DNA of 64,000 bases, from contig JANXYP010000346.1 of the NCBI GenBank assembly GCA_025355955.1, positions 3,945 through 67,944 of the forward strand. The letters are read 5' to 3'. Shown here piece by piece: positions 3,869 through 20,514 of this stretch (positions within the stretch are counted from its first letter, which is position 1; every line of letters begins with the position of its first letter). The notes beneath the pieces are model-generated. The model ran no database searches, was not told the origin of the DNA, and saw only the letters and a list, made by a program, of their open reading frames with translations. A program made the translations under genes and the position numbers. This DNA comes from Chloroflexota bacterium (GTDB taxonomy: Bacteria; Chloroflexota; Chloroflexia; QHBQ01).

Positions 3869-4106
3869 AATTGTAATGCCTTTTCCTTTCGTATAAAAAC
3901 GTGCGAGCGTCTGCCGCCATAGCGAGGCTATGGTAGAACCAGTTGACGCAGTTTGGCCCAGGGTTGGAGGGTTATAACATGGTCACGGGCTTTGCGGCAG
4001 CAAAGCGAGTAAATCGCAGCGGGAATACGGGCGGGAGTACGGGGGGTGTTGACGACTGCCCTGCAACTTGCCTTACCCAAATCTACAATCTTACTGCTTC
4101 GGCGTA

Positions 4107-4135
4107 AGTATACGGTATGTTCGTGGCTTTGTCAA
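4107..4135 (-). promoter_or_regulatory. Sigma-70-type promoter for the cold-shock gene (TTGACA-17-TATACT)
   Basis: On the minus strand, TTGACA (4135-4130), a 17-nt spacer and TATACT (4112-4107). This predicts a 5' UTR of about 230 nt before the csp ATG at 3868. Confidence 0.55.
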
Positions 4136-4172
4136 GATATTTGAGCTAAACTGAGCTAGACAGGGCGCTTCA

Positions 4173-5111
4173 TTACATCATCCCCTCCTGAGCCTGCAAA
4201 CTCTTTTCCTCTATCTGCAACGTAGCGTGATCGATTCCGTACCTCTGGTGCAGCATATCGCGCACATCGCAAAGGGTGCCGTGGGCGTTATAGCCGGGGG
4301 TGTGCTTGTCCACCAGAATGTGCGCGCTAAGGGCTTCCACCCCGGAGGTGATGGTCCAGGCGTGCAGGTCATGCACCTCGCGCACGCAAGGCATGGCGCG
4401 GATGTCAGCTTCCATTTGGGTCAGGTCCAGCCGCGCCGGGGTGGCTTCGAGCAGCACGTCGACCGCCTCGCGCAGCAGCGTCCAGGTGCGGGGCAGGATG
4501 AATAGAGCAATGGCGACGCTGAAGATGGGGTCGGCGTAGTACCAGCCGCTAAACAGCATAACCAGGCCTGCCACCAATGCGCCCGCGCTGCCCAGCGCGT
4601 CGCTGACCACCTCGTAGAACGCGCCCTTCATGTTCAGACTTTCGCTGGAGGCGCTCATCAGCAGCCGAACATTGAACAGGTTGATACTGAGGCCTACCGC
4701 TGCTACCACCATCATCAACCCGCTCTGCACCGCTTCTGGCTGGCGGAGGCGTTGCCACGCCTCGAACAAAATGTAGCCGCTGAGGGCGAATAGGATGATG
4801 CCGTTCGCCAATGCAGCCAGGATTTCCAGCCGATAGTAACCGTAGGTTTTCTGGCGCGTGGCAGGCCGCTCGGCGAACCAGATCGCCAGCAAGGCCATAC
4901 CCTCGCCAAACACATCGGTGAGCATATGGATGGAGTCAGCGAACAGAGTCAGCGAGTTTGCCAGCCAACTGCCGAGCAGTTCGGCGAGGAATATAGTTGC
5001 GGTCAGAACCAGCACCAGCTTTAGCCTGCGCTTGTTGCGCCCTGCGCCGCTGGCGAAGTGGTTGTGGCTATGTGGCTGCTGGGCCATCACATTTTTGCCG
5101 ATCTCGCTCAT
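4173..5111 (-). CDS. Cation diffusion facilitator (CzcD/ZitB-like) metal efflux transporter
   Basis: 312 aa. His-rich N-terminus (HSHNH), six hydrophobic helices, the HMLTD motif in TM2, and a C-terminal cytoplasmic domain (LHAWTITSG...) typical of CDF proteins. An RBS-like GGGGAGAG lies upstream. Confidence 0.88.
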   Translation of the reverse strand: MSEIGKNVMAQQPHSHNHFASGAGRNKRRLKLVLVLTATIFLAELLGSWLANSLTLFADSIHMLTDVFGEGMALLAIWFAERPATRQKTYGYYRLEILAALANGIILFALSGYILFEAWQRLRQPEAVQSGLMMVVAAVGLSINLFNVRLLMSASSESLNMKGAFYEVVSDALGSAGALVAGLVMLFSGWYYADPIFSVAIALFILPRTWTLLREAVDVLLEATPARLDLTQMEADIRAMPCVREVHDLHAWTITSGVEALSAHILVDKHTPGYNAHGTLCDVRDMLHQRYGIDHATLQIEEKSLQAQEGMM

Positions 5112-5220
5112 TTACCTGTCTCTCCCCTATTCCGCTATGCCAATTCTACCCATGTAATTATACAGGCAACCGCCGTGTCGCTTCAAGATTGTTGATATAC
5201 GGTATCACAAACGACGATGG

Positions 5221-10628: not shown

Positions 10629-12791
10629 CTAAGGCCCAGCCTGATACTTCTGCTGGTATTGGAAGGTGCCTAGCTGGCTGAGTTCTACCTCGTAGGGCGT
10701 GCCAGCGTTTTCGGGGTGCAGCTCGAACACCGCCCGCTCGAAGTATTGCACCGTATAGGTCTTACCGTCGAGGGCAGACACCTCCTGGAACTCATCGCTG
10801 ATCGGATAGCCCTGCTGCGTCAACCCACCATGGCTCACCCAGTAGGCGCGGAACTTGCCGCCCACCGTATGGCCGGTAAGCTGGAAGTAGAGCGGGTTAT
10901 CGGTGCTGACCGTCTGGTTGGGCGCACCGTCGGGATATTTGGCGTGGTAGCGGAAGGTGCCTAGCTGGCTGAGTTCCACTTCGTAGGGCGTACCAGCGTT
11001 TTCGGGGTGCAACTCGAACTCGGCCCGCTCGAAGTATTGCACCGTGTAGGTCTTGCCATCCAGCAGGCTGACCTCCTGGAACTCGTCGGTGATGGGGTAG
11101 CCTTGCTGCGCCAATCCGCCGTGGCTCTCCCAGTAAGCGCGGAACTTGCCGCCGATGGTCTTGCCAGTCACGTCAAACTTATAGGGATTGGCGGTGCTGG
11201 CGGTCTGCGGCGGGGGGGTGGTCGCCGGGGTAGCTACTGGCGTGGCGGTCACGGCAGGCGTTCCTGATCCCCCTCCCCCGCCGGGGGGAGGGTTAGGGAG
11301 GGGGGCGCTGCGCGTGCCGCGAATGGTATAGACATCCTCGCGCTGATTGCGGGTATCGGTCCAGACTATCCATACCGCATTACCCGCGGCGGAGATGCCC
11401 ATGTAATCGCCTGCCGCGTTGCCCGCGTCGGCGGCGATGCCGATGTTGTAGTCGGAAGCAGCGGTGCTGAGGCGGGTATCCGGCTGCCAGGTCTTGCCAC
11501 CGTCGCTGCTGGAGGTATAGTAGAGGTTGAGCAGCAAGTTGTTGGGGTCGTCGCGCTTGTCCATCCAGGCCACGTGAATCGTGCCGTCGGGCGCGACCGC
11601 AATGGTAGGCTCCACCTGGTCTATGCGACGGCCAGTCGGGTCGTCGTTGAGCCGCACGGGGCTGCTCCAGGTGTCGCCGCTATCGGCGCTACGGCTGTAG
11701 TAAATGTCGTAACCGTTAGTGGCATCGTTGCGGGCATCCGGCCACACCATATAGACGTTGCCATTGTGACGGTCCACCGCCACCGCCTGCATCGTGATGG
11801 TGCGCCAGTTCTCCGCGCTGTTACCCCTGGGGCAGCCAGTGCCGCAGTTCACCTCGGCAACGTCAGCGATCGGCCTCTCCGCCGACCAACTAACCCCGCC
11901 ATTGGTGGATTTCACCTCGGTGATGGCGGTGGTGCCATCGCCATACATCGTCACCAGCACATTGCCGTTGGGCAGCACCACCGGGATGCTTACCAGGGTC
12001 TCGTTATTACCAAGCTGCACAGGAGTTGACCAGGTTGCGCCGCCATTGGTGGAATATGCGCCGAAGTAGCGGACCACATACTCATTGCTCCAGGTTACAT
12101 ATAGGCGGTTGTAGTAGGGGCTGGCAGGGTTGGTGTCAATCGCCATCCAATCCTTGTCGCTGCTGCCCTTGCCGCCGCGCCAGGCAGCCACTACCTTGCT
12201 CCAGGTTGCGCCGCCGTCGCTGCTGCGGGTGACGTATGTCCCCTCATCGGGGCCACCGTAGGCTAGCAGCGAGACGTAGGCCACGCCGTCCGCGCCGAAA
12301 ACTACTACGGGGTCGCTTTCATCGGCCACCTTGAGGTCGCGCACGCCGGGGGCCAACTGGTTAGTCCAGGTTTGCCCGCCGTCGAGGGTTGCGCCCAGGT
12401 AGACCTGCTTTTTGCCGTCGCGCCAATCCTTGAACGCGACCACTGCGTTCATGTCGTTGCGCGGGTTGACCGCGATCTCCGGCTCGTGGTGGGCGCAGTT
12501 GGTGTTGCTGGCGTTGCAGGTCTCGGCATCGGTGTTGGCCTTCTGGTTCGGTCCCCACACAATCGGCCCGCTCGGAATAGATGGTGGGGTTGGGGTAGGG
12601 CCGCCAATAGCGGGCGTTGTGGTAGGCGTGGCAGCGGGCGGGCCGGGCGGAGATGTGGGGGTGCGGGTAGGCAATCCGCGATATAGGCCGCCCGCTGGCT
12701 GCGGCGCGGTAGACGCGGCCTGGCTGATGTTGCCCGCGACAAACAGGGTCAACGCGAAGAACACGAACAAGAGGGTTGACAGTTTACGCAT
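10629..12791 (-). CDS. Secreted BNR/Asp-box (sialidase-like) beta-propeller protein with two C-terminal LGFP-like repeats
   Basis: Signal peptide, then Asp-box repeats SSDGGATWS, STNGGATWS, STNGGVSWS, SADSGDTWS and SSDGGKTWQ. A Pro/Thr linker follows, then two copies of GGKFRAYW.SHGGL.QQGYPI.DEFQEVS.LDGKTYTVQYFERA.FELHPEN. Confidence 0.8.
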   Translation of the reverse strand: MRKLSTLLFVFFALTLFVAGNISQAASTAPQPAGGLYRGLPTRTPTSPPGPPAATPTTTPAIGGPTPTPPSIPSGPIVWGPNQKANTDAETCNASNTNCAHHEPEIAVNPRNDMNAVVAFKDWRDGKKQVYLGATLDGGQTWTNQLAPGVRDLKVADESDPVVVFGADGVAYVSLLAYGGPDEGTYVTRSSDGGATWSKVVAAWRGGKGSSDKDWMAIDTNPASPYYNRLYVTWSNEYVVRYFGAYSTNGGATWSTPVQLGNNETLVSIPVVLPNGNVLVTMYGDGTTAITEVKSTNGGVSWSAERPIADVAEVNCGTGCPRGNSAENWRTITMQAVAVDRHNGNVYMVWPDARNDATNGYDIYYSRSADSGDTWSSPVRLNDDPTGRRIDQVEPTIAVAPDGTIHVAWMDKRDDPNNLLLNLYYTSSSDGGKTWQPDTRLSTAASDYNIGIAADAGNAAGDYMGISAAGNAVWIVWTDTRNQREDVYTIRGTRSAPLPNPPPGGGGGSGTPAVTATPVATPATTPPPQTASTANPYKFDVTGKTIGGKFRAYWESHGGLAQQGYPITDEFQEVSLLDGKTYTVQYFERAEFELHPENAGTPYEVELSQLGTFRYHAKYPDGAPNQTVSTDNPLYFQLTGHTVGGKFRAYWVSHGGLTQQGYPISDEFQEVSALDGKTYTVQYFERAVFELHPENAGTPYEVELSQLGTFQYQQKYQAGP

Positions 12792-12919
12792 CTTTCACCT
12801 CTCCTTTTAGCCACGTCCGGTTGGGTTACGCCATATGGCCGTAGGGCGGGATAAATCCCGCCCCTACAACCCGATTTGTACCTTTAGCAGAAGGATAATC
12901 CCACCCTGGCTAAAGCTCG

Positions 12920-15900
12920 TTATGGTGCAATCGGGTACTTCTGCTGGTACTGGAAGGTACCTAGTTGGCTGAGTTCCACCTCGTATGCAGTACCCGCGTT
13001 TTCGGGATGTAGCTCGAACACCGCCCGCTCGAAGTATTGCACCGTGTAGGTCTTGCCGTCCAGTGGGCTGACCTCTTGGAACTCGTCGGAGATGGGGTAG
13101 CCTTGCTGCGCCAGCCCGCCGTGGCTCTCCCAGTAGGCGCGGAACTTGCCGCCGATAGTATGTCCCGTCTGCGGGAAGGGGTAGGGATGATCGGTACTGG
13201 CAGTCTGACCCGTTGCGCCGTTGGGGTATTTCTGCTTGTAACGGAAGGTGCCAAGCTGACTGAGCAGCACATCGTTAGGTGCGGCGTTTTCGGGGTGCAA
13301 CTCCATCACTGCCCGCTCGAAGTATTGCACGGTGTAGGTCTTGCCGTCGAGGGCGGACACCTCCTGAAACTCATTGCTGATCGGGTAGCCCTGCTGCGCC
13401 AACCCACCGTGGTTCTCCCAATAAGCGCGGAACTTGCCGCCAATAGTCTTGCCAGTCTGGGGGAAGAGGTAGGGATGGTCGGTGCTGGCGGTCTGCGTCG
13501 GGGCAGGAACGGGTGTGGCGGTGGGTAGCGGCGTGCTTGTTGCCGCAGGGGTGGGAGTTGCGTCCTCGCAAGAGACGGTAGCCGCCTCCACCGAGGTGAG
13601 CAAACTGCCACGTGCACCGCCACCGATGGCAAAGATGGTATTGCCCACGCTTGCCCCTGCTGGGATCATACGGTACTGCGCCATGTTCGGCCCGTTGCTC
13701 CACGTGTTGCTAGTCGAGTCGTACACGTAGCTCTGGTTTTGCTCCGCTGCGCTATTGCCGTAGATGCCACCGAAGACATAGAGGTGGTTACCGACCACCG
13801 CACTGCCCGGGTAGTCAATCGCGCGGGGTAGGTCGGCGCGGGCAGTCCAGGTATCCGCGGCAATGTCGTAGTCATAGGTAGAGGTGGTAAAGCTCATCGA
13901 ACCCAGGTCGAAGCCACCGGCGCTGTAAAGATGGCCGTTGATTACGCCGTAGCCCATACCGCTGACTTTGGCGGGGCTGGTAGCGCGGCTGGCCCAGGTG
14001 TTGGCAAGGGGGTCGTACACCCAGGTCTGATCGGTGACTGAAGGGGTAACCAGGCTGGTGAGGCCGCCAACCAGGTAGATCTTGCCGTTCCAGTAACCCG
14101 CCGCCATGAACGCATGGGCCAGCGGCATGGGTGCGCCGCTGCTCCACGAGTTGCTGGCGAGGTCATAGATGCGCGTGTCGGCGAAGCTGCTGCTGTTAGT
14201 CGTGAGCGTGCCTTTTACGCCGCCGAAGACGTAGAGCTTCTTGTTGATTGGCGAGTAGACGGCGTTGCCAGCCAGAAACGCGCTGGGCGCATGGGCGAGG
14301 CTAGTCCAGGTGTTAGCAGTGGGGTCATAGCGTAGTAGCTGGTTGCTCTCGTTCAGTCCTGACAGGGTAAACGTCCCGCCTGCCACGTAGACGTAGGTGC
14401 CGTCGCTGGCCGCCGCGCCGCTCATCGAGCCGGGCAGCGGAGCAACAGTTTGCCAGTTCCCCAGTGGCCCATTGCAGGGGGCAGTTTGGGCGGTGGCCCT
14501 GGTAGCTAGCCCACTAACGCTGCCAATCATCAGGGCAACGATAGCCGCGGTGGAGGCAAGCCTAACCAGTACGCCGCTCAGGTGCGGCATCGACATGGAG
14601 GTGGTTGGATTCTGATTCTGCATCTTTACTCTCTCTTTCAGGCCCGCAATGCGGGCGCTATAGGTCAATATCAGCAATAAAGGCGTGGTCGCCGGGGTAG
14701 GAGTGCCAGCCGAAGGCGGCGCAGGCGGTGCAGCCTGACATGAGACAGCGGCAATCTCAGCCGAGGCTAGCAGGCTGTCACTGCGGCCCTCGACTGCCAC
14801 GATGCTGTTGCCGACACTCGCGCCGCCGGGCAGCATCCACGCTTGCGCCATGTCCGACCCGCTGCTCCAGCGATCGCCGGTGGGGTCGTAAACGTAGGTG
14901 TGAGGCTGCATTAGGCTGCGATTATCAATGCCGCCGAAGACATACAGATGGTTGCCCACCACGGCGCTGCCAGCATAGTTGATCGCGGTGGGTAGGCTAG
15001 CGCGGGTCGTCCAGCGATCGGCGGCGATGTCGAAATCATAAGTGGCATTGGTAAACCCGCCAGTGGTGGGGTCGAAGCCGCCCACTACATAGAGGTGACC
15101 GTTGATCACGCCGTAGCTGGAGCCGCTCGCCCGCACCGGCAGCGCGGCGCGGTTGGCCCAGGTGTTGGCGAGGGGGTCATATTCCCAGGTTTGGGTCATG
15201 GTCGAAGGATTAGCCAGGCTGGCAAGGCCAGCAACGAGGTAAATACGGCCGTTCCAGTAGCCAGCGGCCATCAGCAGGCGGGTATCAGACATCGGTGCGC
15301 CGCTGCTCCAGGTGTTGGTGGCGGGGTTATAGATGCGGGTGTCAGAGAACGGATTGCTGGCGGCAGCAGTGGGCCCGTGTGCGCCGCCGAAGACGTAGAG
15401 TTTCTTGTTGATTGGCGAGTAGACGGCAGTGGCGGCGGCAAACGATGCAGGCGCGGGGGCGAGGGTTGTCCACTTGTTGGCAGCAAGGTCATAGCGCAGT
15501 AGTTGATTGCTCTCTTTAAGCCCTGACAAAGTGAAATTTCCGCCTGCCACATAGACGTAGGTGCCATCGCTTGCGGTAGCCCCACCAGTTGCCGCGCCGG
15601 GGAGCGAGGCAGCATTGTGCCATGACCCAGGCGGCCCATTGCAGGGGGTGGGTTGAGCGGTTGGTGCGGCAGTTGGCATCAAAGTGGGCGTTGGCGTAGG
15701 TTGCGCGCCAGGGTGAAGTTGCTGCCTCCTGATCAGGTCGGAGGCGACCGCGATGCTGCCGAGCAGCAACCCGATGATGATAAGGGCGGTGACAAACCGA
15801 CCGAACAGGCTGCTCAGGCGCGGCAGCGGCGAGGAGGTGGCGGCGTTTTGCGGTGCTGCGTTTTGGCGACCTGCCCAGCGGGGGCTGGCGCTAGTGCGGG

Positions 15901-16105
15901 CAAACCTCGCCTCTGCCTCGAGCTGCTGGCGCAGCCGTGTGCGGAAGGCGGGGGTGGGCTTCTGCCCATGAATCTCCCGATGCAAGCGCCTGGCAATTAT
16001 AGCCTCACCAGGATCGAGGCCAGCGGGCGGCCTGGCGTTTTCGTCCTGAGCTAGCACAGCGCAGTATTGCTCGAGCAGGGTGGCTTGTTGCTCTGGGTCG
16101 GTCAT
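12920..16105 (-). CDS. Anti-sigma factor (by position), TM helix and Kelch propeller, read through in frame into a second signal-peptide, Kelch propeller and 2x LGFP-like unit
   Basis: One 1061-aa ORF. Its start overlaps the stop of the upstream ECF sigma gene (TGATG). It has a TM helix (FVTALIIIGLLLGSIAVA) and Kelch-type blades (LYVFGG, IYLVAG, LYVVGGF). An internal ATG at 14623 is preceded by GAAAGAGAGAG and a GC hairpin, and it opens a second signal-peptide-like segment with a paralogous Kelch propeller. This may really be two genes (14624..16105 and 12920..14623). Confidence 0.6.
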   Translation of the reverse strand: MTDPEQQATLLEQYCAVLAQDENARPPAGLDPGEAIIARRLHREIHGQKPTPAFRTRLRQQLEAEARFARTSASPRWAGRQNAAPQNAATSSPLPRLSSLFGRFVTALIIIGLLLGSIAVASDLIRRQQLHPGAQPTPTPTLMPTAAPTAQPTPCNGPPGSWHNAASLPGAATGGATASDGTYVYVAGGNFTLSGLKESNQLLRYDLAANKWTTLAPAPASFAAATAVYSPINKKLYVFGGAHGPTAAASNPFSDTRIYNPATNTWSSGAPMSDTRLLMAAGYWNGRIYLVAGLASLANPSTMTQTWEYDPLANTWANRAALPVRASGSSYGVINGHLYVVGGFDPTTGGFTNATYDFDIAADRWTTRASLPTAINYAGSAVVGNHLYVFGGIDNRSLMQPHTYVYDPTGDRWSSGSDMAQAWMLPGGASVGNSIVAVEGRSDSLLASAEIAAVSCQAAPPAPPSAGTPTPATTPLLLILTYSARIAGLKERVKMQNQNPTTSMSMPHLSGVLVRLASTAAIVALMIGSVSGLATRATAQTAPCNGPLGNWQTVAPLPGSMSGAAASDGTYVYVAGGTFTLSGLNESNQLLRYDPTANTWTSLAHAPSAFLAGNAVYSPINKKLYVFGGVKGTLTTNSSSFADTRIYDLASNSWSSGAPMPLAHAFMAAGYWNGKIYLVGGLTSLVTPSVTDQTWVYDPLANTWASRATSPAKVSGMGYGVINGHLYSAGGFDLGSMSFTTSTYDYDIAADTWTARADLPRAIDYPGSAVVGNHLYVFGGIYGNSAAEQNQSYVYDSTSNTWSNGPNMAQYRMIPAGASVGNTIFAIGGGARGSLLTSVEAATVSCEDATPTPAATSTPLPTATPVPAPTQTASTDHPYLFPQTGKTIGGKFRAYWENHGGLAQQGYPISNEFQEVSALDGKTYTVQYFERAVMELHPENAAPNDVLLSQLGTFRYKQKYPNGATGQTASTDHPYPFPQTGHTIGGKFRAYWESHGGLAQQGYPISDEFQEVSPLDGKTYTVQYFERAVFELHPENAGTAYEVELSQLGTFQYQQKYPIAP

Positions 16106-16689
16106 CAGGCCATCTCCGAACCTAGAATGAGCTGCTTCAACCTTTCGACAGCACGGTGACGCAGCATCCTGATTGCCGGGGCGCTCTTATCCAGCGCCTC
16201 GCTGATCTGCGCCCCGCTCCAGCCCGCGCACTGCAACTCCAACACGGTGCGCTGTTCGTCAGGTAGCTGGGCCAGTGCGACGCGCAAGTCCTCAAGTTCG
16301 CTAGCGATGATGATCGTCTCTTCCATACTGGGGCTGGGGTCCGCCAGCTCGCTCATCTCGAACGAGGCATGGGGTCGCTGGCGAGTTTGCAGATTGATCA
16401 CCACATTATGGGCGATACGGAACAGCCAGGCGGCGAACATCCCGCCACGATAGCTGCCCAGCGCGGTGAACGCCTTGAGGAACACCTCGCTGCTGGCATC
16501 CTCGGCTGCCTCGCGGCTGTTCAGGCGCACGTAGCAGTAGGAGTAGATCGGCTCCAGGTAACGATCGTATAGGCGCGTGAAAGCCAACGGGTCGGCCAGC
16601 GCCGCTCGCATCAGTTCTTCATCAGGCTGCTCCTCGGATGCGGCCACTTCCGCCCGTCGGCGGCTAGCCAACCCGAACAGGAAAAGCAT
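16105..16689 (-). CDS. ECF (sigma-70 family group IV) sigma factor
   Basis: 194 aa. Region 2 (FTRLYDRYLEPIYSYCYVRL...AEDASSEVFLKAF) and region 4 HTH (RTVLELQCAGWSGAQISEALDKSAPAIRMLRHRAVERLK). Translationally coupled to the downstream anti-sigma-like ORF. Confidence 0.88.
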   Translation of the reverse strand: MLFLFGLASRRRAEVAASEEQPDEELMRAALADPLAFTRLYDRYLEPIYSYCYVRLNSREAAEDASSEVFLKAFTALGSYRGGMFAAWLFRIAHNVVINLQTRQRPHASFEMSELADPSPSMEETIIIASELEDLRVALAQLPDEQRTVLELQCAGWSGAQISEALDKSAPAIRMLRHRAVERLKQLILGSEMA

Positions 16690-16763
16690 ATGCTTGCCCC
16701 TTGTTTGTCGCTGCGCCCAGCAAGTCCGGCGCTTGCCTCACCAGTATAGACACTGCAGTTGGG

Positions 16764-17630
16764 TTAATGTAACGTGCGGTTTGCGGCAATATCTTTGGCC
16801 CACCCAGGAAACACGCCGAGTAGCCGCGCCACCGTTGCGCTGGTGGCCGCATTGCCCAGCGCGTGGAAGCTGAAGAACTCCACGACTACCCACACTTTGG
16901 CAACGGCAATGGCGACAGCCAACTGTTGCGCTGCCGCACCTTGTTCGCCGCTATAGCGCGAGGCGATCAGCCAATAATCGTCCATGCTGCCCAGGCCGGG
17001 GACAGTAATCGCCAGATCGAACGCCACCGCCCCGCGTCCGAAGCGCTCCCAATCGTAGAGGGAGAGTGTGCCATCCTCGCGCACGCCCCAGTTCATCGGG
17101 TTGGGGTCGCCGGAGATGTAGCAATCGGGGCCGAGGTGCACACTGGTTGCTTGTAGGGATTTCAGCGGCTCACGGAGGATGGCGGCGGCAGTGGGGGTAA
17201 AGCAGGACAACGCCGCCGCGCTCATCTCATCCGTCCACTGGGGGCGAAACAGAGGCAAATCGGGAGGGGGTGTAAGGTCTAGCTGATGCAAGGAGCTCAG
17301 CACTGCCAGCAACTCAGAGTCAGCCAGCCAGCGCTCACGAGGCAGCGACGTGGGGATGTCTTCCAGCGCCAACCAGTAGGATGCGGCATCACGCGCCGAC
17401 CAACGCAACTCCGGCACGGCCACACCGTTCGCCCGCAGCGTCGGCGCAACCTCGCGGTAGAAGCGAAACTCGCTGGCCTTGCCGCTGACCTTGATAATCG
17501 CCGAGCCACCAGCGGCGAATCGCACCCGCCACACGCTTGCGTCGCTCATCCCGCCGAGCTGTTCACTCGACTGCGGTGCGCCGTAGGTGGTGAGCAGGAA
17601 GGTGGTTAGGGCGGCGGGCCAATCAAGCAT
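16764..17630 (-). CDS. Aminoglycoside/choline-kinase-like phosphotransferase family protein
   Basis: An APH-like core is present (GDPNPMNW at the catalytic-loop position, then LYDWERFG as the DxD/DFG-like metal site). The usual His of HxDxxxxN is Gly here. I moved the start to ATG 17630, which removes the overlap with the upstream gene. Confidence 0.6.
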   Translation of the reverse strand: MLDWPAALTTFLLTTYGAPQSSEQLGGMSDASVWRVRFAAGGSAIIKVSGKASEFRFYREVAPTLRANGVAVPELRWSARDAASYWLALEDIPTSLPRERWLADSELLAVLSSLHQLDLTPPPDLPLFRPQWTDEMSAAALSCFTPTAAAILREPLKSLQATSVHLGPDCYISGDPNPMNWGVREDGTLSLYDWERFGRGAVAFDLAITVPGLGSMDDYWLIASRYSGEQGAAAQQLAVAIAVAKVWVVVEFFSFHALGNAATSATVARLLGVFPGWAKDIAANRTLH

Positions 17631-17640
17631 GGCTTGACCA

Positions 17641-18558
17641 TCATCCCCCACCCAGATCCTGCGGCCACGCGGGGGCAATCATCCCCGCATAAGCCATAGC
17701 CATGAACAGGTAGCCCTGCGCGATCATCTGATTCTGATCCTCAAGTGCGATCGCGCCGATATTGGGGTAATGGGCCCGCACGTACTCTCGCGCCTGCTGC
17801 TCCGCTGTCGCCTGCATCACATCCACCGCAAACACACCGGGTTCGCTCAGTAGTTGCCCAATCTTGGCCTTGTCTGCGCTGATAACAATGAAAACGATGC
17901 CGAATACCTCTTCTTCGGCAGTGGAGGGCAGATGCAAGGGCGGCTGTTCGCCCTTGATGCAGGCCGGGCCAATGCCGGGCATATCGTGGTAGCCGCGCGG
18001 GTGATCTACGAAACTGAACGAGCAGAAGCTCGGCTTCAATCCCTCGCGCTGGACGAAAGCGTTGAACTCGGTGTCGGTAAGCGGGCGGCGAAATTGCACC
18101 TGCACCTCGGCGCTGCCTCGCAAGCCCGTGACAAGCTGGCGATTAAGCGCAACGTAACGGTTTATATCATCGGCGGTTGCGAACTTATTACCCGTGCAGG
18201 TGGGGTGGAGAGGGGTGCAATTGACTTCTAGTCTCAGACTGTGATGAGAAAGCGTAGCCTGGTAGCTCCAGCCAGCGAACTTCTCATTCCAGCGAAGGTA
18301 CGGCCCGGCGGTGAGTTCAATTGCCGCCACTGCGCTTTGGGTGGGGGCTGGGGGTGGCAGTTGCGGAAGATCGGTTCTAACCGCCTCTGGCAGCGTGGTT
18401 TGCTCCGACTGCGGCAGCGCGGATGGAGGAGTAGCGAGCGATTGTACCACGGCGTTACCCGGTGCGGGATTCTGTCCGCCGCAGCTAGCCAGCAGCAAAC
18501 AGAGCAGAGCGATTAGTGCAACTTGCGGGTTTGCACCCCTACCTTGCGCTTTCACCAT
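17641..18558 (-). CDS. Lipoprotein, function unknown
   Basis: Signal peptide with the lipobox LLLASC|GG. No recognisable domain. Confidence 0.6.
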   Translation of the reverse strand: MVKAQGRGANPQVALIALLCLLLASCGGQNPAPGNAVVQSLATPPSALPQSEQTTLPEAVRTDLPQLPPPAPTQSAVAAIELTAGPYLRWNEKFAGWSYQATLSHHSLRLEVNCTPLHPTCTGNKFATADDINRYVALNRQLVTGLRGSAEVQVQFRRPLTDTEFNAFVQREGLKPSFCSFSFVDHPRGYHDMPGIGPACIKGEQPPLHLPSTAEEEVFGIVFIVISADKAKIGQLLSEPGVFAVDVMQATAEQQAREYVRAHYPNIGAIALEDQNQMIAQGYLFMAMAYAGMIAPAWPQDLGGG

Positions 18559-18585
18559 AAGAGTCTAACCATCTTTCACGCTGAT

Positions 18586-20343
18586 TTATCCGGCTTCCGG
18601 CAGCCCCGACATGGGGCTGCTGGGGCTGGCGCTGGCTGGCTCGATATTGGCGGGATGCTTGGGCCGCTGCTGCAGGGCGTATAGGCCGATGCTGATTAGT
18701 ATGATGGCAACGATGACGAAAATCGGCAGCTTGCTAGCCTGCCAGGCAGCAGCGACGGCGGCATCGCCCTGCACCTTGCTGTTGAAGTAATCGAAGTAGG
18801 GGAGGACGAACGAGGGAAACTTGCTGGTGAGGGTAGTGGCGATGATACCGGGATCCTGGTGGGTGATCTTGCTGAGAACATCACTCAGACCGAACACCAG
18901 CAGCGAACTCTGGCCGCTCGGCTGGTTGTACATCCAGCGCGGTTGGTAGATAAAGCCGTACATCACCGCATAGCTGGTCAGCAGCAGCACCCCATAGATG
19001 AATAGATAGACCACCTTGTAGGCAAGCGCCTTGAAGCTGTCAATCGCCACTGCAAAGGGCAGGGCCAGCAGCGGCAGCACCGAGGTGAGATAGCGGGCAG
19101 GCGGACACCACTCGCCCCACCATTGCGCGTAATTGGAGATCACCGCGAAGTAGGGCAGGAACACGATTGCCAGCCAGAGCAGATCCTTGCGCCAGCCCTT
19201 TTGCAGGGCCATCACGATCAGACCCACGATGGTCAAAATGAAGATTGGTGCGGCGACGAATAGACCCCACTGCTCGTCAATCAGCGAGCCGACCGCGCCG
19301 CGAATTGTGCCAGCCACGTCGCTGCTGCCCGCGTGGTCGCTGGCGTTGGGGATCAGCTGGGCGTAGCGTTGGTAGAAGAAGGCCATCATCAGTATCGCTG
19401 AAACCACGACCTGCGCCGCCACGATGATGTAGTTACGCAGCCGTTCCTTGCTCGGCTGGCGGTTCTCCTGCCACATATAGTAGAGAAACAGCGCTATGCT
19501 GACGGGAATAAAGCGATAGTGCATCCAGGGGATGAAGGCGATGCTGAAGCCGACCGCCGCAATTTGCAACCAGTTGTTGTGCCACAGGCGAATACGGCGG
19601 AAGGCGTAGACGATAAACAGCGCGACCGGCAGTTCGGGGAAGATAAGGAACGAATATGCCATAATCGGCGCACTAAAGGAGAAGGCAATCCAGGTCAGGA
19701 TCGCGGGCAGCAGCTTGCCGGTGCCTTCGCGGGCGAACAGGTAGATGTTGGCGGCGAGGATGGCGGCGAGGAAGTTGAGGAAGTAGACCACCAGCAGGCG
19801 ATCGCCGATGATGTAGGCGGGCAGCACCAGCAGACTGAGGCCGAGGCCGTGCTTGGAGTATAGCTCATTGCCCACGGTTGGGTCGGCAGGCAGCGGCACA
19901 TTGGGGGTGGTGTTACACTGGCGGCTGGGTGGCACAAGGATGGCGGGGTGGGGCGGCAGCGGGTAGGGGATACCAGGGGGCCAGCCCTGCCAGTCGGAGG
20001 GAAAGTCGCTAAGGTCAATTCGGCCCTTGGTCGAGTAAGCCTGACCATAGAAGGGCGGATAGATCTTGGCTTCTGCGTGGGTGCGATAGCTGTTGCACTC
20101 GTTCAGAGTGTGGTTGTACCAGATGGTGCCAGCGGTCATCAAGTAGAACGGCTCGTCGCCAGTCACCGGGTTGAGCATGGCAGTGATGCGGGGGGTAACT
20201 AGCGACAGCACCACCATGGTGATGGCTGCGACGAGAATTGGCTCCCACCAGGCGATTGTCGGGCGGCGGGACTGGCTGGCTGGCGCGACAGCGGTAGTGT
20301 CTCTCTTCTGCCGCGTAGATAGTTGCGCGGGTAGTTGCAACAC
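18586..20343 (-). CDS. Polytopic GT-C-type (ArnT/PMT-like) membrane glycosyltransferase, putative
   Basis: More than 10 hydrophobic helices, with a first-loop acidic motif (TGDEPFYL) as in GT-C enzymes. The ORF-track N-terminus (to 20571) reads through two intergenic hairpin repeats. I call GTG 20343, which sits 7 nt after AGGAG. Confidence 0.6.
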   Translation of the reverse strand: MLQLPAQLSTRQKRDTTAVAPASQSRRPTIAWWEPILVAAITMVVLSLVTPRITAMLNPVTGDEPFYLMTAGTIWYNHTLNECNSYRTHAEAKIYPPFYGQAYSTKGRIDLSDFPSDWQGWPPGIPYPLPPHPAILVPPSRQCNTTPNVPLPADPTVGNELYSKHGLGLSLLVLPAYIIGDRLLVVYFLNFLAAILAANIYLFAREGTGKLLPAILTWIAFSFSAPIMAYSFLIFPELPVALFIVYAFRRIRLWHNNWLQIAAVGFSIAFIPWMHYRFIPVSIALFLYYMWQENRQPSKERLRNYIIVAAQVVVSAILMMAFFYQRYAQLIPNASDHAGSSDVAGTIRGAVGSLIDEQWGLFVAAPIFILTIVGLIVMALQKGWRKDLLWLAIVFLPYFAVISNYAQWWGEWCPPARYLTSVLPLLALPFAVAIDSFKALAYKVVYLFIYGVLLLTSYAVMYGFIYQPRWMYNQPSGQSSLLVFGLSDVLSKITHQDPGIIATTLTSKFPSFVLPYFDYFNSKVQGDAAVAAAWQASKLPIFVIVAIILISIGLYALQQRPKHPANIEPASASPSSPMSGLPEAG

Positions 20344-20514
20344 TAGAACTCTCCTTCGGGACGCAGTGGGCGCGTTGGGTGCGATACATCCAATTGCAAT
20401 ACGTTGTTGGTGTAGGGGCGGATTGCGTCCGCCCTGGCTGCCCCTCACCCTAACCCTCTCCCATCTCGGGAGAGGGGATCTGCAGGGCGGGGTGCTGTTC
20501 ACAGCACCCGTGCG

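What the first reader, a model, noticed from the sequence alone, without database searches (positions are those of the whole stretch)
12920..16105. Two paralogous Kelch-propeller genes read as one 1061-aa ORF across an intergenic-looking spacer
The ORF contains two units with high similarity. Compare PCNGPPGSWHNAASLPG...DGTYVYVAGGNFTLSGLKESNQLLRYD with PCNGPLGNWQTVAPLPG...DGTYVYVAGGTFTLSGLNESNQLLRYD. Between them (about 14590-14700) lie the following, all in frame with no stop:
- a GC hairpin (GCCCGCAATGCGGGC, 14642-14656)
- a purine-rich RBS-like GAAAGAGAGAG
- an ATG (14623)
- a fresh signal-peptide-like segment (LVRLASTAAIVALMIGSVSGLATRATAQ)

A TGA exists one frame over (TTATTGCTGA). This could be a recent stop-codon loss, a single-base assembly error or a genuine frameshift site. 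Alternatively it is a real two-propeller anti-sigma protein with a second membrane pass.
Basis: partly seen in the sequence, partly recalled or inferred. Interest (0 to 1): 0.6.

Follow-up and report, generated by a model that had tools for sequence, protein, structure and literature searches.

The report
Two neighbouring Kelch genes fused in-frame
In this uncultured Chloroflexia bacterium, two adjacent paralogous genes that are separate in its closest relatives (a membrane anti-sigma sensor and a secreted Kelch protein) have lost the stop codon between them and now read as one 1061-residue gene, which is an ordinary lineage-specific gene fusion with a well-preserved history.

Summary
ORF 12920-16105 (minus strand, 1061 aa) holds two Kelch propellers joined by a stretch with a small GC hairpin, a purine run, an ATG and a signal-peptide-like segment.

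Orthology trees place unit 1 and unit 2 with two separate adjacent genes in two relatives, G002 (same genus) and an ENA soil contig. There a TGA ends gene 1, and gene 2 starts at its own ATG 39 nt (ENA contig) or about 535 nt (G002) downstream. A third relative also ends gene 1 with a stop. No other fused form was found among 5.8 billion proteins.

The fusion is probably not an assembly error. An independent Logan assembly (SRR22198310) reproduces the open frame and the junction exactly.

The "intergenic" features are relics. Hairpin, purine run and ATG match in frame the juxtamembrane codons (S-A-R-x-A-G-x-K-E-R-x-K-M) of single-propeller anti-sigma paralogues. Gene 2 is therefore a 5'-truncated anti-sigma copy whose membrane helix became a signal peptide.

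The ORF is a three-part mosaic: A-type anti-sigma head, B-type propeller, then gene 2.

Most likely it makes a membrane-tethered two-propeller chain plus an internally initiated secreted propeller. Interest is modest.

The parts
16748..16774 (-). ECF-type promoter motif CGTTAC-N17-GTCT upstream of the sigma gene
   Evidence: Conserved upstream of the sigma genes of 8 related loci. It is the only match in the window, against 0.03 expected. Its function is inferred.
16105..16689 (-). ECF sigma factor, 194 aa, A-type
   Evidence: Pfam Sigma70_r2 and r4_2. NCBIfam TIGR02937 scores 83 bits against a cut-off of 42.9.
12920..16105 (-). The fused 1061-aa ORF
   Evidence: It is reproduced for its first 930 aa, up to the contig end, in the independent Logan contig L033.
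15797..16105 (-). Cytoplasmic N-terminal part (aa 1-103), presumed anti-sigma domain, A-type
   Evidence: About 60% identical to A-type anti-sigma genes and about 40% to B-type. Informative sites split A 36 / B 8. No profile hit. The anti-sigma role is inferred from position and coupling.
15740..15796 (-). Membrane helix 1 (aa 104-122)
   Evidence: Summed hydrophobicity -1.5, Kyte-Doolittle 2.46.
14735..15649 (-). Kelch propeller 1 (aa 153-457), B-type
   Evidence: Pfam Kelch. Clusters with the stand-alone B genes of L030 and G002, support 95/95.
14678..14734 (-). Pro/Thr linker after propeller 1 (aa 458-476), the former 3' end of gene 1
   Evidence: The relatives place their stop 0-13 codons after the homologous TP(L).
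14624..14677 (-). Former intergenic spacer, now 18 codons (aa 477-494, LLILTYSARIAGLKERVK). It holds two +1-frame TGAs (14671-14673, 14665-14667), the hairpin (14642-14656) and the SD-like purine run (14629-14639).
   Evidence: Homologous to the 39-nt spacer of L030 and to the gene-2 leader of G002. Homologous in frame to anti-sigma juxtamembrane codons, score 37 against shuffles 15.5 +/- 2.8, with 0 of 2000 shuffles reaching it.
14486..14623 (-). M495 and the signal-peptide-like segment (aa 495-540; h-region 516-534; A-T-A|Q)
   Evidence: Corresponds to the start and signal peptide of the separate gene 2 in L030 and G002. Hydrophobicity +1.5. Duplex with a generic anti-SD sequence is -9.4 kcal/mol.
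13565..14485 (-). Kelch propeller 2 (aa 541-847), gene-2 type
   Evidence: 90-91% identical to gene 2 of G002 and L030. Clade support 99/99.
12923..13486 (-). Two C-terminal ~90-aa modules (LGFP-like), a shared module of secreted proteins in this lineage
   Evidence: Present on more than 50 ORFs of the genome. Marginal Pfam LGFP hit, 23.1 bits against a cut-off of 22.
12841..12867 (-). Strong hairpin after the stop codon, the likely end of the operon
   Evidence: Fold z-score -4.2, with 0 of 200 shuffles as stable.

Best explanation
The 1061-aa ORF is a real fusion, specific to this lineage, of two adjacent co-transcribed cistrons.

**The two parent genes**
- Gene 1: anti-sigma domain, membrane helix, Kelch propeller.
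- Gene 2: signal peptide, Kelch propeller, two LGFP-like modules.

**How they fused (shown by comparison).** In the nearest relatives, gene 1 ends at a TGA just after its Pro/Thr linker. Gene 2 then starts at its own ATG behind a short leader. In this genome, small indels in the last codons of gene 1 leave the TGAs in the +1 frame. The 18-codon leader has no stop in gene 2's frame because it is itself former coding sequence. So the ribosome runs from gene 1 into gene 2.

**Deeper history (shown by comparison).** Gene 2 is a 5'-truncated copy of a single-propeller anti-sigma gene.
- Its signal peptide descends from the anti-sigma membrane helix.
- Its start codon descends from a conserved internal Met.
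- Its SD-like purine run descends from Lys-Glu-Arg codons.
- Its 'hairpin' descends from Ala-Arg-x-Ala-Gly codons.

The present ORF also joins an A-type anti-sigma head, which matches the A-type sigma upstream, to a B-type propeller.

**How it works (inferred)**
1. The sigma gene and the ORF are transcribed from one autoregulated ECF promoter.
2. Full-length translation gives a membrane-tethered chain. Its marginally hydrophobic second segment probably does not stop transfer, so both propellers lie outside the cell.
3. The retained SD and ATG495 probably still give a separately initiated, secreted 567-aa propeller, as in the relatives.
For: **Orthology**
- Unit 1 groups with the stand-alone B genes of L030 and G002 (95/95). 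Unit 2 groups with their stand-alone gene 2 (99/99).
- L030: gene 1 ends ...PLSRS-TGA, followed by a 39-nt spacer with the same hairpin and purine run, then the ATG of gene 2.
- G002: stop after ...TPTP, then about 535 nt including inserted repeats, then the same leader and ATG.
- L031: gene 1 ends with a stop after ...PLSEPITSNDF.

**The fused form is unique and the sequence is reproducible**
- Among 5.8e9 proteins, only the window's own protein spans the junction.
- Logan contig L033 is 99.8% identical to window 13316-20434. Its differences lie only at 17419-17520, the junction is identical, and the frame is open for 930 aa to the contig end.
- L034, from another run, confirms the sigma gene and the first 111 residues.

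**The spacer is former coding sequence**
- Window Y-S-A-R-I-A-G-L-K-E-R-V-K-M-Q-N aligns with L032_A D-S-P-R-S-A-G-G-K-E-R-A-K-M-E-N and L030_A N-S-A-R-R-A-G-R-E-E-G-A-E-M-Q-T, codon by codon.

**Mosaic head**
- Informative sites are A 36 / B 8 in aa 1-100, then A 33 / B 85.

**Translation and topology**
- SD duplex -9.4 kcal/mol, against a genome start median of -6.6 and -3.3 for internal ATGs.
- Segment 2 is signal-peptide grade.

**Operon**
- One ECF-type promoter motif, no terminator-like site in the spacer, and a strong hairpin only after the ORF.
Against:
- The Logan contig may come from the same reads as the MAG. It excludes an assembler error but not a peculiarity of that one read set.
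- There is only one population, so there is no evidence that the fusion is old or selected.
- The direction of change (fusion versus later splitting in relatives) rests on three comparators and an unresolved deep tree.
- Internal initiation, secretion and topology are inferred. The anti-SD sequence was assumed, since no 16S 3' end is present in the MAG.
- The N-terminal anti-sigma domain has no profile match.
Confidence: 0.72

Rival explanations
1. The fused frame is the ancestral state. An in-frame internal duplication (juxtamembrane, helix, propeller, linker) of a single anti-sigma gene first produced a two-propeller ORF. This genome kept it, and the relatives later split it by acquiring stops.
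For: - The duplicated block is head-to-tail, and the spacer is former coding sequence in the same frame as gene 2.
- The window is sister to the L030+G002 pair in the propeller-1 tree, so parsimony alone cannot polarise the change.
- L031 reads the homologous CCGATA..ACCTCTA tail in the same frame as the window.
Against: - All three comparators have a stop, including the more distant L031.
- G002, and L030 once its private extra C is removed, share the same -1 offset between the gene-1 and gene-2 frames.
- The window keeps two TGAs at the homologous spot, just out of frame.
Confidence: 0.15
2. It is a sequencing or assembly artefact. A one-base indel in 14657-14680 hides the real stop of gene 1, and the organism has two ordinary genes.
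For: - The genome is a fragmented MAG (420 contigs, N50 18 kb).
- Removing one base before the TGAs would give ...PLLRY*, much like L030's ...PLSRS*.
- The fused form is a singleton.
Against: - An independent Logan assembly has the identical junction and differs from the MAG elsewhere.
- The site is not a homopolymer.
- The two units share no exact repeat longer than 26 nt, so paralogue-driven misassembly is unlikely.
Confidence: 0.06
3. It is a purpose-built two-propeller anti-sigma factor. The second hydrophobic segment is a genuine second membrane pass, which puts propeller 2 and the C-terminal modules in the cytoplasm.
For: The ORF is continuous and a second hydrophobic stretch exists.
Against: - Segment 2 is only marginally hydrophobic (+1.5 against -1.5).
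- It is followed by an A-x-A motif and derives from a signal peptide.
- The C-terminal modules are otherwise found on secreted proteins.
- None of 11 other Kelch-propeller ORFs checked in this genome (most with two or more propellers) has an internal hydrophobic segment.
- No homologue with this layout exists.
Confidence: 0.04
4. It is a programmed +1 ribosomal frameshift site that normally ends gene 1 at the out-of-frame TGA.
For: TGAs lie in the +1 frame right after the linker.
Against: - There is no known slippery or RF2-type motif and no stimulatory structure. The local fold z-score is -1.8 in the window and +0.3 in L030.
- The relatives simply have in-frame stops.
- There is no Rfam match.
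Confidence: 0.01

Closest known systems
ECF sigma factor with a co-transcribed single-pass anti-sigma factor carrying an extracytoplasmic sensor domain (for example sigma-W/RsiW or sigma-V/RsiV of Bacillus subtilis; from general knowledge)
   Same: - A 194-aa sigma with sigma-2 and sigma-4 domains.
- The stop and start codons overlap.
- The partner has a ~100-aa cytoplasmic head, one membrane helix and an outside domain.
- A conserved ECF-type promoter motif lies upstream.
   Different: - The head matches no anti-sigma profile.
- The outside domain is a Kelch propeller.
- The chain continues in frame into a second, formerly separate secreted propeller gene.
Gene fusion by loss of the stop codon between adjacent genes ('Rosetta-stone' fusions; from general knowledge)
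   Same: The components are separate, adjacent and co-oriented in relatives, and fused in one lineage.
   Different: - The two partners are paralogues of each other.
- The downstream partner keeps its SD, start codon and signal peptide inside the fused frame.
NanM/YjhT-type Kelch mutarotases (N-acetylneuraminate epimerase)
   Same: Six-bladed Kelch propellers. Pfam NANM gives E 5e-28. A BNR (sialidase-fold) gene lies next door.
   Different: NCBIfam scores are far below the family cut-offs (103.8 against 416, and 90.7 against 256). It is therefore not a member, and a sugar ligand is only a guess.
LGFP cell-wall-associated repeats (Pfam PF08310)
   Same: A marginal hit in the C-terminal module, which is attached to many secreted proteins.
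   Different: Only 21 of 53 profile positions match. The unit is about 90 aa long and no solved relative exists.

Membership tests
ECF (group 4) sigma-70 factor | Sigma-2 and sigma-4 domains only, about 200 aa | tested here: met
   Pfam Sigma70_r2 at 6e-13 and r4_2 at 6e-10. TIGR02937 scores 83 bits against a cut-off of 42.9. Length is 194 aa.
ECF-cognate single-pass anti-sigma factor | Encoded directly downstream of the sigma gene and translationally coupled to it | tested here: met
   TGATG overlap. The same arrangement occurs in G001, G003, G004, L030, L031 and L032.
ECF-cognate single-pass anti-sigma factor | Recognisable N-terminal anti-sigma domain (ASD / zf-HC2 / RskA type) | tested here: inconclusive
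   No Pfam or NCBIfam hit for residues 1-120, even at E 10.
ECF-cognate single-pass anti-sigma factor | One membrane helix after the cytoplasmic head | tested here: met
   Residues 104-122, summed hydrophobicity -1.5.
ECF-cognate single-pass anti-sigma factor | Binds and inhibits its sigma factor | not testable with these tools
   Needs a two-hybrid or pull-down experiment.
Kelch beta-propeller | Repeated Kelch blades matching the profiles | tested here: met
   Kelch_1 at E 1.6e-72 with 8 stretches. Two separate propellers, at aa 153-457 and 541-847.
Stop-loss fusion of adjacent genes | Orthologues of both halves exist as separate adjacent genes with a stop between them | tested here: met
   L030 and G002, with tree support 95/95 and 99/99.
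Stop-loss fusion of adjacent genes | The fused sequence is reproducible, not an assembly slip | tested here: met
   The junction is identical in Logan contig L033. Reads were not inspected.
Stop-loss fusion of adjacent genes | A fused polypeptide is actually made | not testable with these tools
   Needs expression or proteomics.
Sec-type signal peptide (unit 2) | n-region, h-region and c-region with small residues at -3 and -1 | tested here: inconclusive
   ...VLVR / LASTAAIVALMIGSV / SGLATRATA|Q, hydrophobicity +1.5. This is a heuristic reading only; no dedicated predictor was available.
Programmed ribosomal frameshift | A slippery motif with a stimulator, and a product that needs the shift | tested here: not met
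   The frame is continuous. There is no motif, the fold is not significant, and there is no Rfam hit.
NanM/YjhT mutarotase | Score above the family cut-off | tested here: not met
   103.8 against 416, and 90.7 against 256.
LGFP repeat | Full-length match above the gathering score | tested here: inconclusive
   23.1 bits against a cut-off of 22, but only profile positions 30-50 of 53 match.

The most novel reading that the evidence does not exclude
The locus is a gene caught between fission and fusion, and it works as a dual-output gene. One mRNA and one frame yield two products: a membrane-tethered two-propeller anti-sigma factor, and an internally initiated, secreted single propeller from a start site, SD and signal peptide that evolved out of anti-sigma coding sequence. 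The secreted propeller could compete with or feed the sensor for the same ligand.
Probability: 0.3. Interest if true: 0.45.

Novelty: new member of a known kind. Interest (0 to 1): 0.28.

Why it matters
This is mainly an annotation and evolution point.

- **Annotation.** The 1061-aa ORF should not be taken as a conserved two-propeller architecture. It is a one-lineage fusion of two genes.
- **Gene birth.** The locus shows how a secreted protein gene can arise from a membrane anti-sigma gene. The membrane anchor became a signal peptide, an internal Met became the start codon, and Lys-Glu-Arg codons became the ribosome-binding site.
- **Array dynamics.** It shows how tandem sigma/anti-sigma paralogue arrays shuffle by recombination. 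Relatives carry A only, A+B+gene 2, or B+gene 2; here there is an A/B chimera fused to gene 2.

It does not open a new mechanism.

Tried and rejected
- **JGI metagenome contig scan** with the junction peptide: only distant hits at 29-39% identity.
- **Exact-protein look-up of the BNR neighbour**, to reach more contigs across the junction: not on record. Look-up of the cut 930-aa product returned the same contig only.
- **Rfam** over 12000-17500: only a sub-threshold snoRNA chance hit.
- **Sigma-70 promoter and intrinsic terminator scan:** nothing in the spacer.
- **ECF promoter motif** in front of unit 2 or the BNR gene: absent.
- **Paralogue-driven misassembly between the two units:** rejected, because the longest shared exact word is 26 nt.
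- **Programmed frameshift:** rejected (see rival explanations).
- **Literature search** for anti-sigma factor + Kelch + ECF: nothing relevant.
- **Structure prediction:** not run, because it would not discriminate between the readings.
Full report
**What is there**

On the minus strand, 12920-16105 is one open frame of 1061 aa. Its ATG shares one base with the TGA of an ECF sigma gene at 16105-16689 (TGATG). The genome is a fragmented MAG of an uncultured Chloroflexia bacterium: 420 contigs, N50 18 kb, 84% complete.

The protein reads as follows:
- a ~100-aa cytoplasmic head
- a strongly hydrophobic helix (aa 104-122)
- a Pro/Thr linker
- Kelch propeller 1 (aa 153-457)
- a Pro/Thr linker (aa 458-476)
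- 18 odd codons (aa 477-494, LLILTYSARIAGLKERVK)
- M495 and a signal-peptide-like stretch (h-region 516-534, A-T-A|Q)
- Kelch propeller 2 (aa 541-847)
- a linker
- two ~90-aa C-terminal modules

The two units align from the juxtamembrane region through the propeller to the linker, at 56% identity over 408 columns.

**Orthologues are two genes**

The closest genomes were found with the genome search and exact-protein look-ups. They show the following:

| Relative | Arrangement |
|---|---|
| G002 (same genus) | sigma-B; a 469-aa anti-sigma-Kelch gene ending ...TPTP-TGA; about 535 nt that include dispersed 74-75-nt repeats; then a separate gene beginning MHRPTNLGGLLGRFVTTSAIIALLAASLSGQATSFAQATPCNGP, continued on a second contig and followed by the same BNR gene |
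| ENA forest-soil contig L030 | Fullest array: APH, sigma-A, a 657-aa A-type gene (anti-sigma, one Kelch, two C-modules), sigma-B, a 479-aa B-type gene ending ...PLSRS-TGA, a 39-nt spacer ATAATCGCGCCCGCCATTGCGGGCCTGAAAGGAAGAATAGCT, then the ATG of gene 2 |
| Logan contig L031 | B-type gene that also ends with a stop (...PLSEPITSNDF*) |
| Sister-genus genomes G003, G004 and assembly L032 | Only the single-propeller A-type gene. In L032 it is directly followed by the BNR gene |

In a maximum-likelihood tree of the propellers, unit 1 groups with the B genes of L030 and G002 (95/95). Unit 2 groups with their gene 2 (99/99, 90-91% identity). A search of 5.8 billion proteins with the junction region returned only the window's own protein as a fused form. 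The JGI metagenome scan found nothing close.

**How the frame stays open**

Window, L030 and L031 share ...CCT TTA T... at the end of the linker, in the same frame. Directly after it the sequences differ by small indels.

In the window, two TGAs (14671-14673 and 14665-14667), a third TGA and a TAA all lie in the +1 frame, and a TAG lies in the +2 frame. Frame 0 is open and runs into ATG495.

Relative to L030, the window has one extra base before the TGA and one base fewer in the hairpin loop. G002 also lacks that loop base, so the extra C is probably private to L030. With that C removed, G002 and L030 share the same -1 offset between the gene-1 and gene-2 frames. This speaks for a split ancestor of those two.

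**Why the spacer looks intergenic yet has no stop**

Read in gene 2's frame, the leader is homologous, codon by codon, to the cytoplasmic juxtamembrane segment of A-type anti-sigma genes:

| Sequence | Codons | Residues |
|---|---|---|
| Window | TAT AGC GCC CGC ATT GCG GGC CTG AAA GAG AGA GTA AAG ATG CAG AAT | Y S A R I A G L K E R V K M Q N |
| L032_A | GAT AGC CCC CGC AGT GCG GGC GGG AAG GAA AGA GCA AAG ATG GAA AAC | D S P R S A G G K E R A K M E N |
| L030_A | AAC AGC GCC CGC CGC GCG GGC AGA GAG GAA GGA GCA GAG ATG CAA ACC | N S A R R A G R E E G A E M Q T |

The alignment score is 37, against 15.5 +/- 2.8 for shuffles, and 0 of 2000 shuffles reach it.

So each "intergenic" feature has a coding origin:
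- The 'GC hairpin' is the codon string Ala-Arg-x-Ala-Gly.
- The 'RBS-like' purine run is Lys-Glu-Arg.
- M495 is a conserved internal Met.
- The signal peptide aligns with the anti-sigma membrane helix (LLGRFVTTSAIIALLAASL against LFGRLATAVLIVALLLGSL).

Gene 2 is therefore a 5'-truncated anti-sigma copy. Because its leader is former coding sequence, the lack of stops in that frame needs no special explanation.

**The head is also a mosaic**

Residues 1-100 are about 60% identical to A-type genes and about 40% to B-type. Residues 101-476 are 75% identical to B-type and 57-60% to A-type. Informative nucleotide sites switch from A 36 / B 8 to A 33 / B 85 near codon 100.

The sigma gene upstream is A-type, so the cognate sigma/anti-sigma head pair is kept. 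The relatives differ in which members of the array they retain, so this locus recombines often.

**Is it an assembly error?**

Two other lines of evidence bear on the question:
- The exact sigma protein is also encoded on Logan contig SRR22198310_408741 (7116 bp), which was built by a different assembler. It matches window 13316-20434 at 99.8%. All 11 substitutions and one 3-nt indel are confined to 17419-17520. The junction is identical, and the frame is open for 930 aa to the contig end.
- A second run gives the sigma gene and the first 111 codons, identically.

The two units share no exact word longer than 26 nt, and the site is not a homopolymer. I put an artefact at about 6%.

**How it most likely works**

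*Shown by sequence or computation:*
- One ECF-type promoter motif (CGTTAC-N17-GTCT, 16748-16774). It is conserved before the sigma genes of eight related loci and is unique in the window.
- No promoter-like or terminator-like site in the spacer.
- A strong hairpin only after the ORF (z -4.2).
- A purine run before ATG495 that pairs with a generic anti-SD sequence at -9.4 kcal/mol. In this genome, presumed gene starts have a median of -6.6 and internal ATGs -3.3.
- A second hydrophobic segment of signal-peptide grade only (+1.5 against -1.5 for helix 1).
- None of 11 other Kelch-propeller ORFs checked in this genome (most with two or more propellers) has an internal hydrophobic segment.

*Inferred:*
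- The full-length chain is anchored by helix 1, with both propellers and the C-terminal modules outside the cell.
- The 567-aa secreted propeller is still made from ATG495, as in the relatives.
- The cytoplasmic head holds the A-type sigma until the propeller senses a ligand.

The ligand is unknown. The Kelch/NanM-like fold and the neighbouring BNR gene hint at a sugar, but the NanM family cut-offs are not met.

**Verdict**

This is a real, single-lineage fusion of two adjacent paralogous genes, with a clear evolutionary record but no new mechanism. It counts as a new member of a known kind and is of modest interest.

Noticed in passing
window 12923-13486 and 10629-11200 (the C-terminus of the BNR gene): A ~90-aa module, usually doubled (GGKFRAYWESHGGLAQQGYPI...TYTVQYFERAVFELHPEN), sits at the C-terminus of more than 50 ORFs of this MAG. 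It also occurs on thousands of Chloroflexia proteins with unrelated domains (plastocyanin, sulfatase, hydrolases, solute-binding proteins). It has only a marginal LGFP hit and no solved relative, so it is probably an undescribed cell-envelope anchoring domain.
   Followed up: partly
window 16748-16774 (-): An ECF-type promoter motif CGTTAC-N17-GTCTAT is conserved upstream of both A-type and B-type sigma genes in eight related loci. It occurs once in the window.
   Followed up: partly
L025 (G002 contig C107) 482-1018: In the congener, the spacer between gene 1 and gene 2 holds about 480 bp of dispersed 74-75-nt repeat units. These also occur at 4050-4450 and 4950-5200 of the same locus. The insert is flanked by ACACCAT on both sides, so it looks like a small mobile repeat insertion.
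   Followed up: partly
window 17419-17520: The independent Logan contig differs from the MAG only here, with 11 substitutions and a 3-nt indel within about 100 bp of the APH-like gene. This is either a strain-level recombination tract or a hypervariable patch.
   Followed up: no
L025 3294-3968 (G002): The A-type sigma orthologue of the congener has a replaced, non-homologous C-terminus after ...MLRHR, and it lies directly next to the B-type sigma. The A-type anti-sigma gene seems to have been deleted there.
   Followed up: no
window 12841-12867 (-): A strong GC hairpin (GTAGGGGCGGGATTTATCCCGCCCTAC) without a T-run lies between the ORF and the BNR gene. It is the likely end of the operon.
   Followed up: partly
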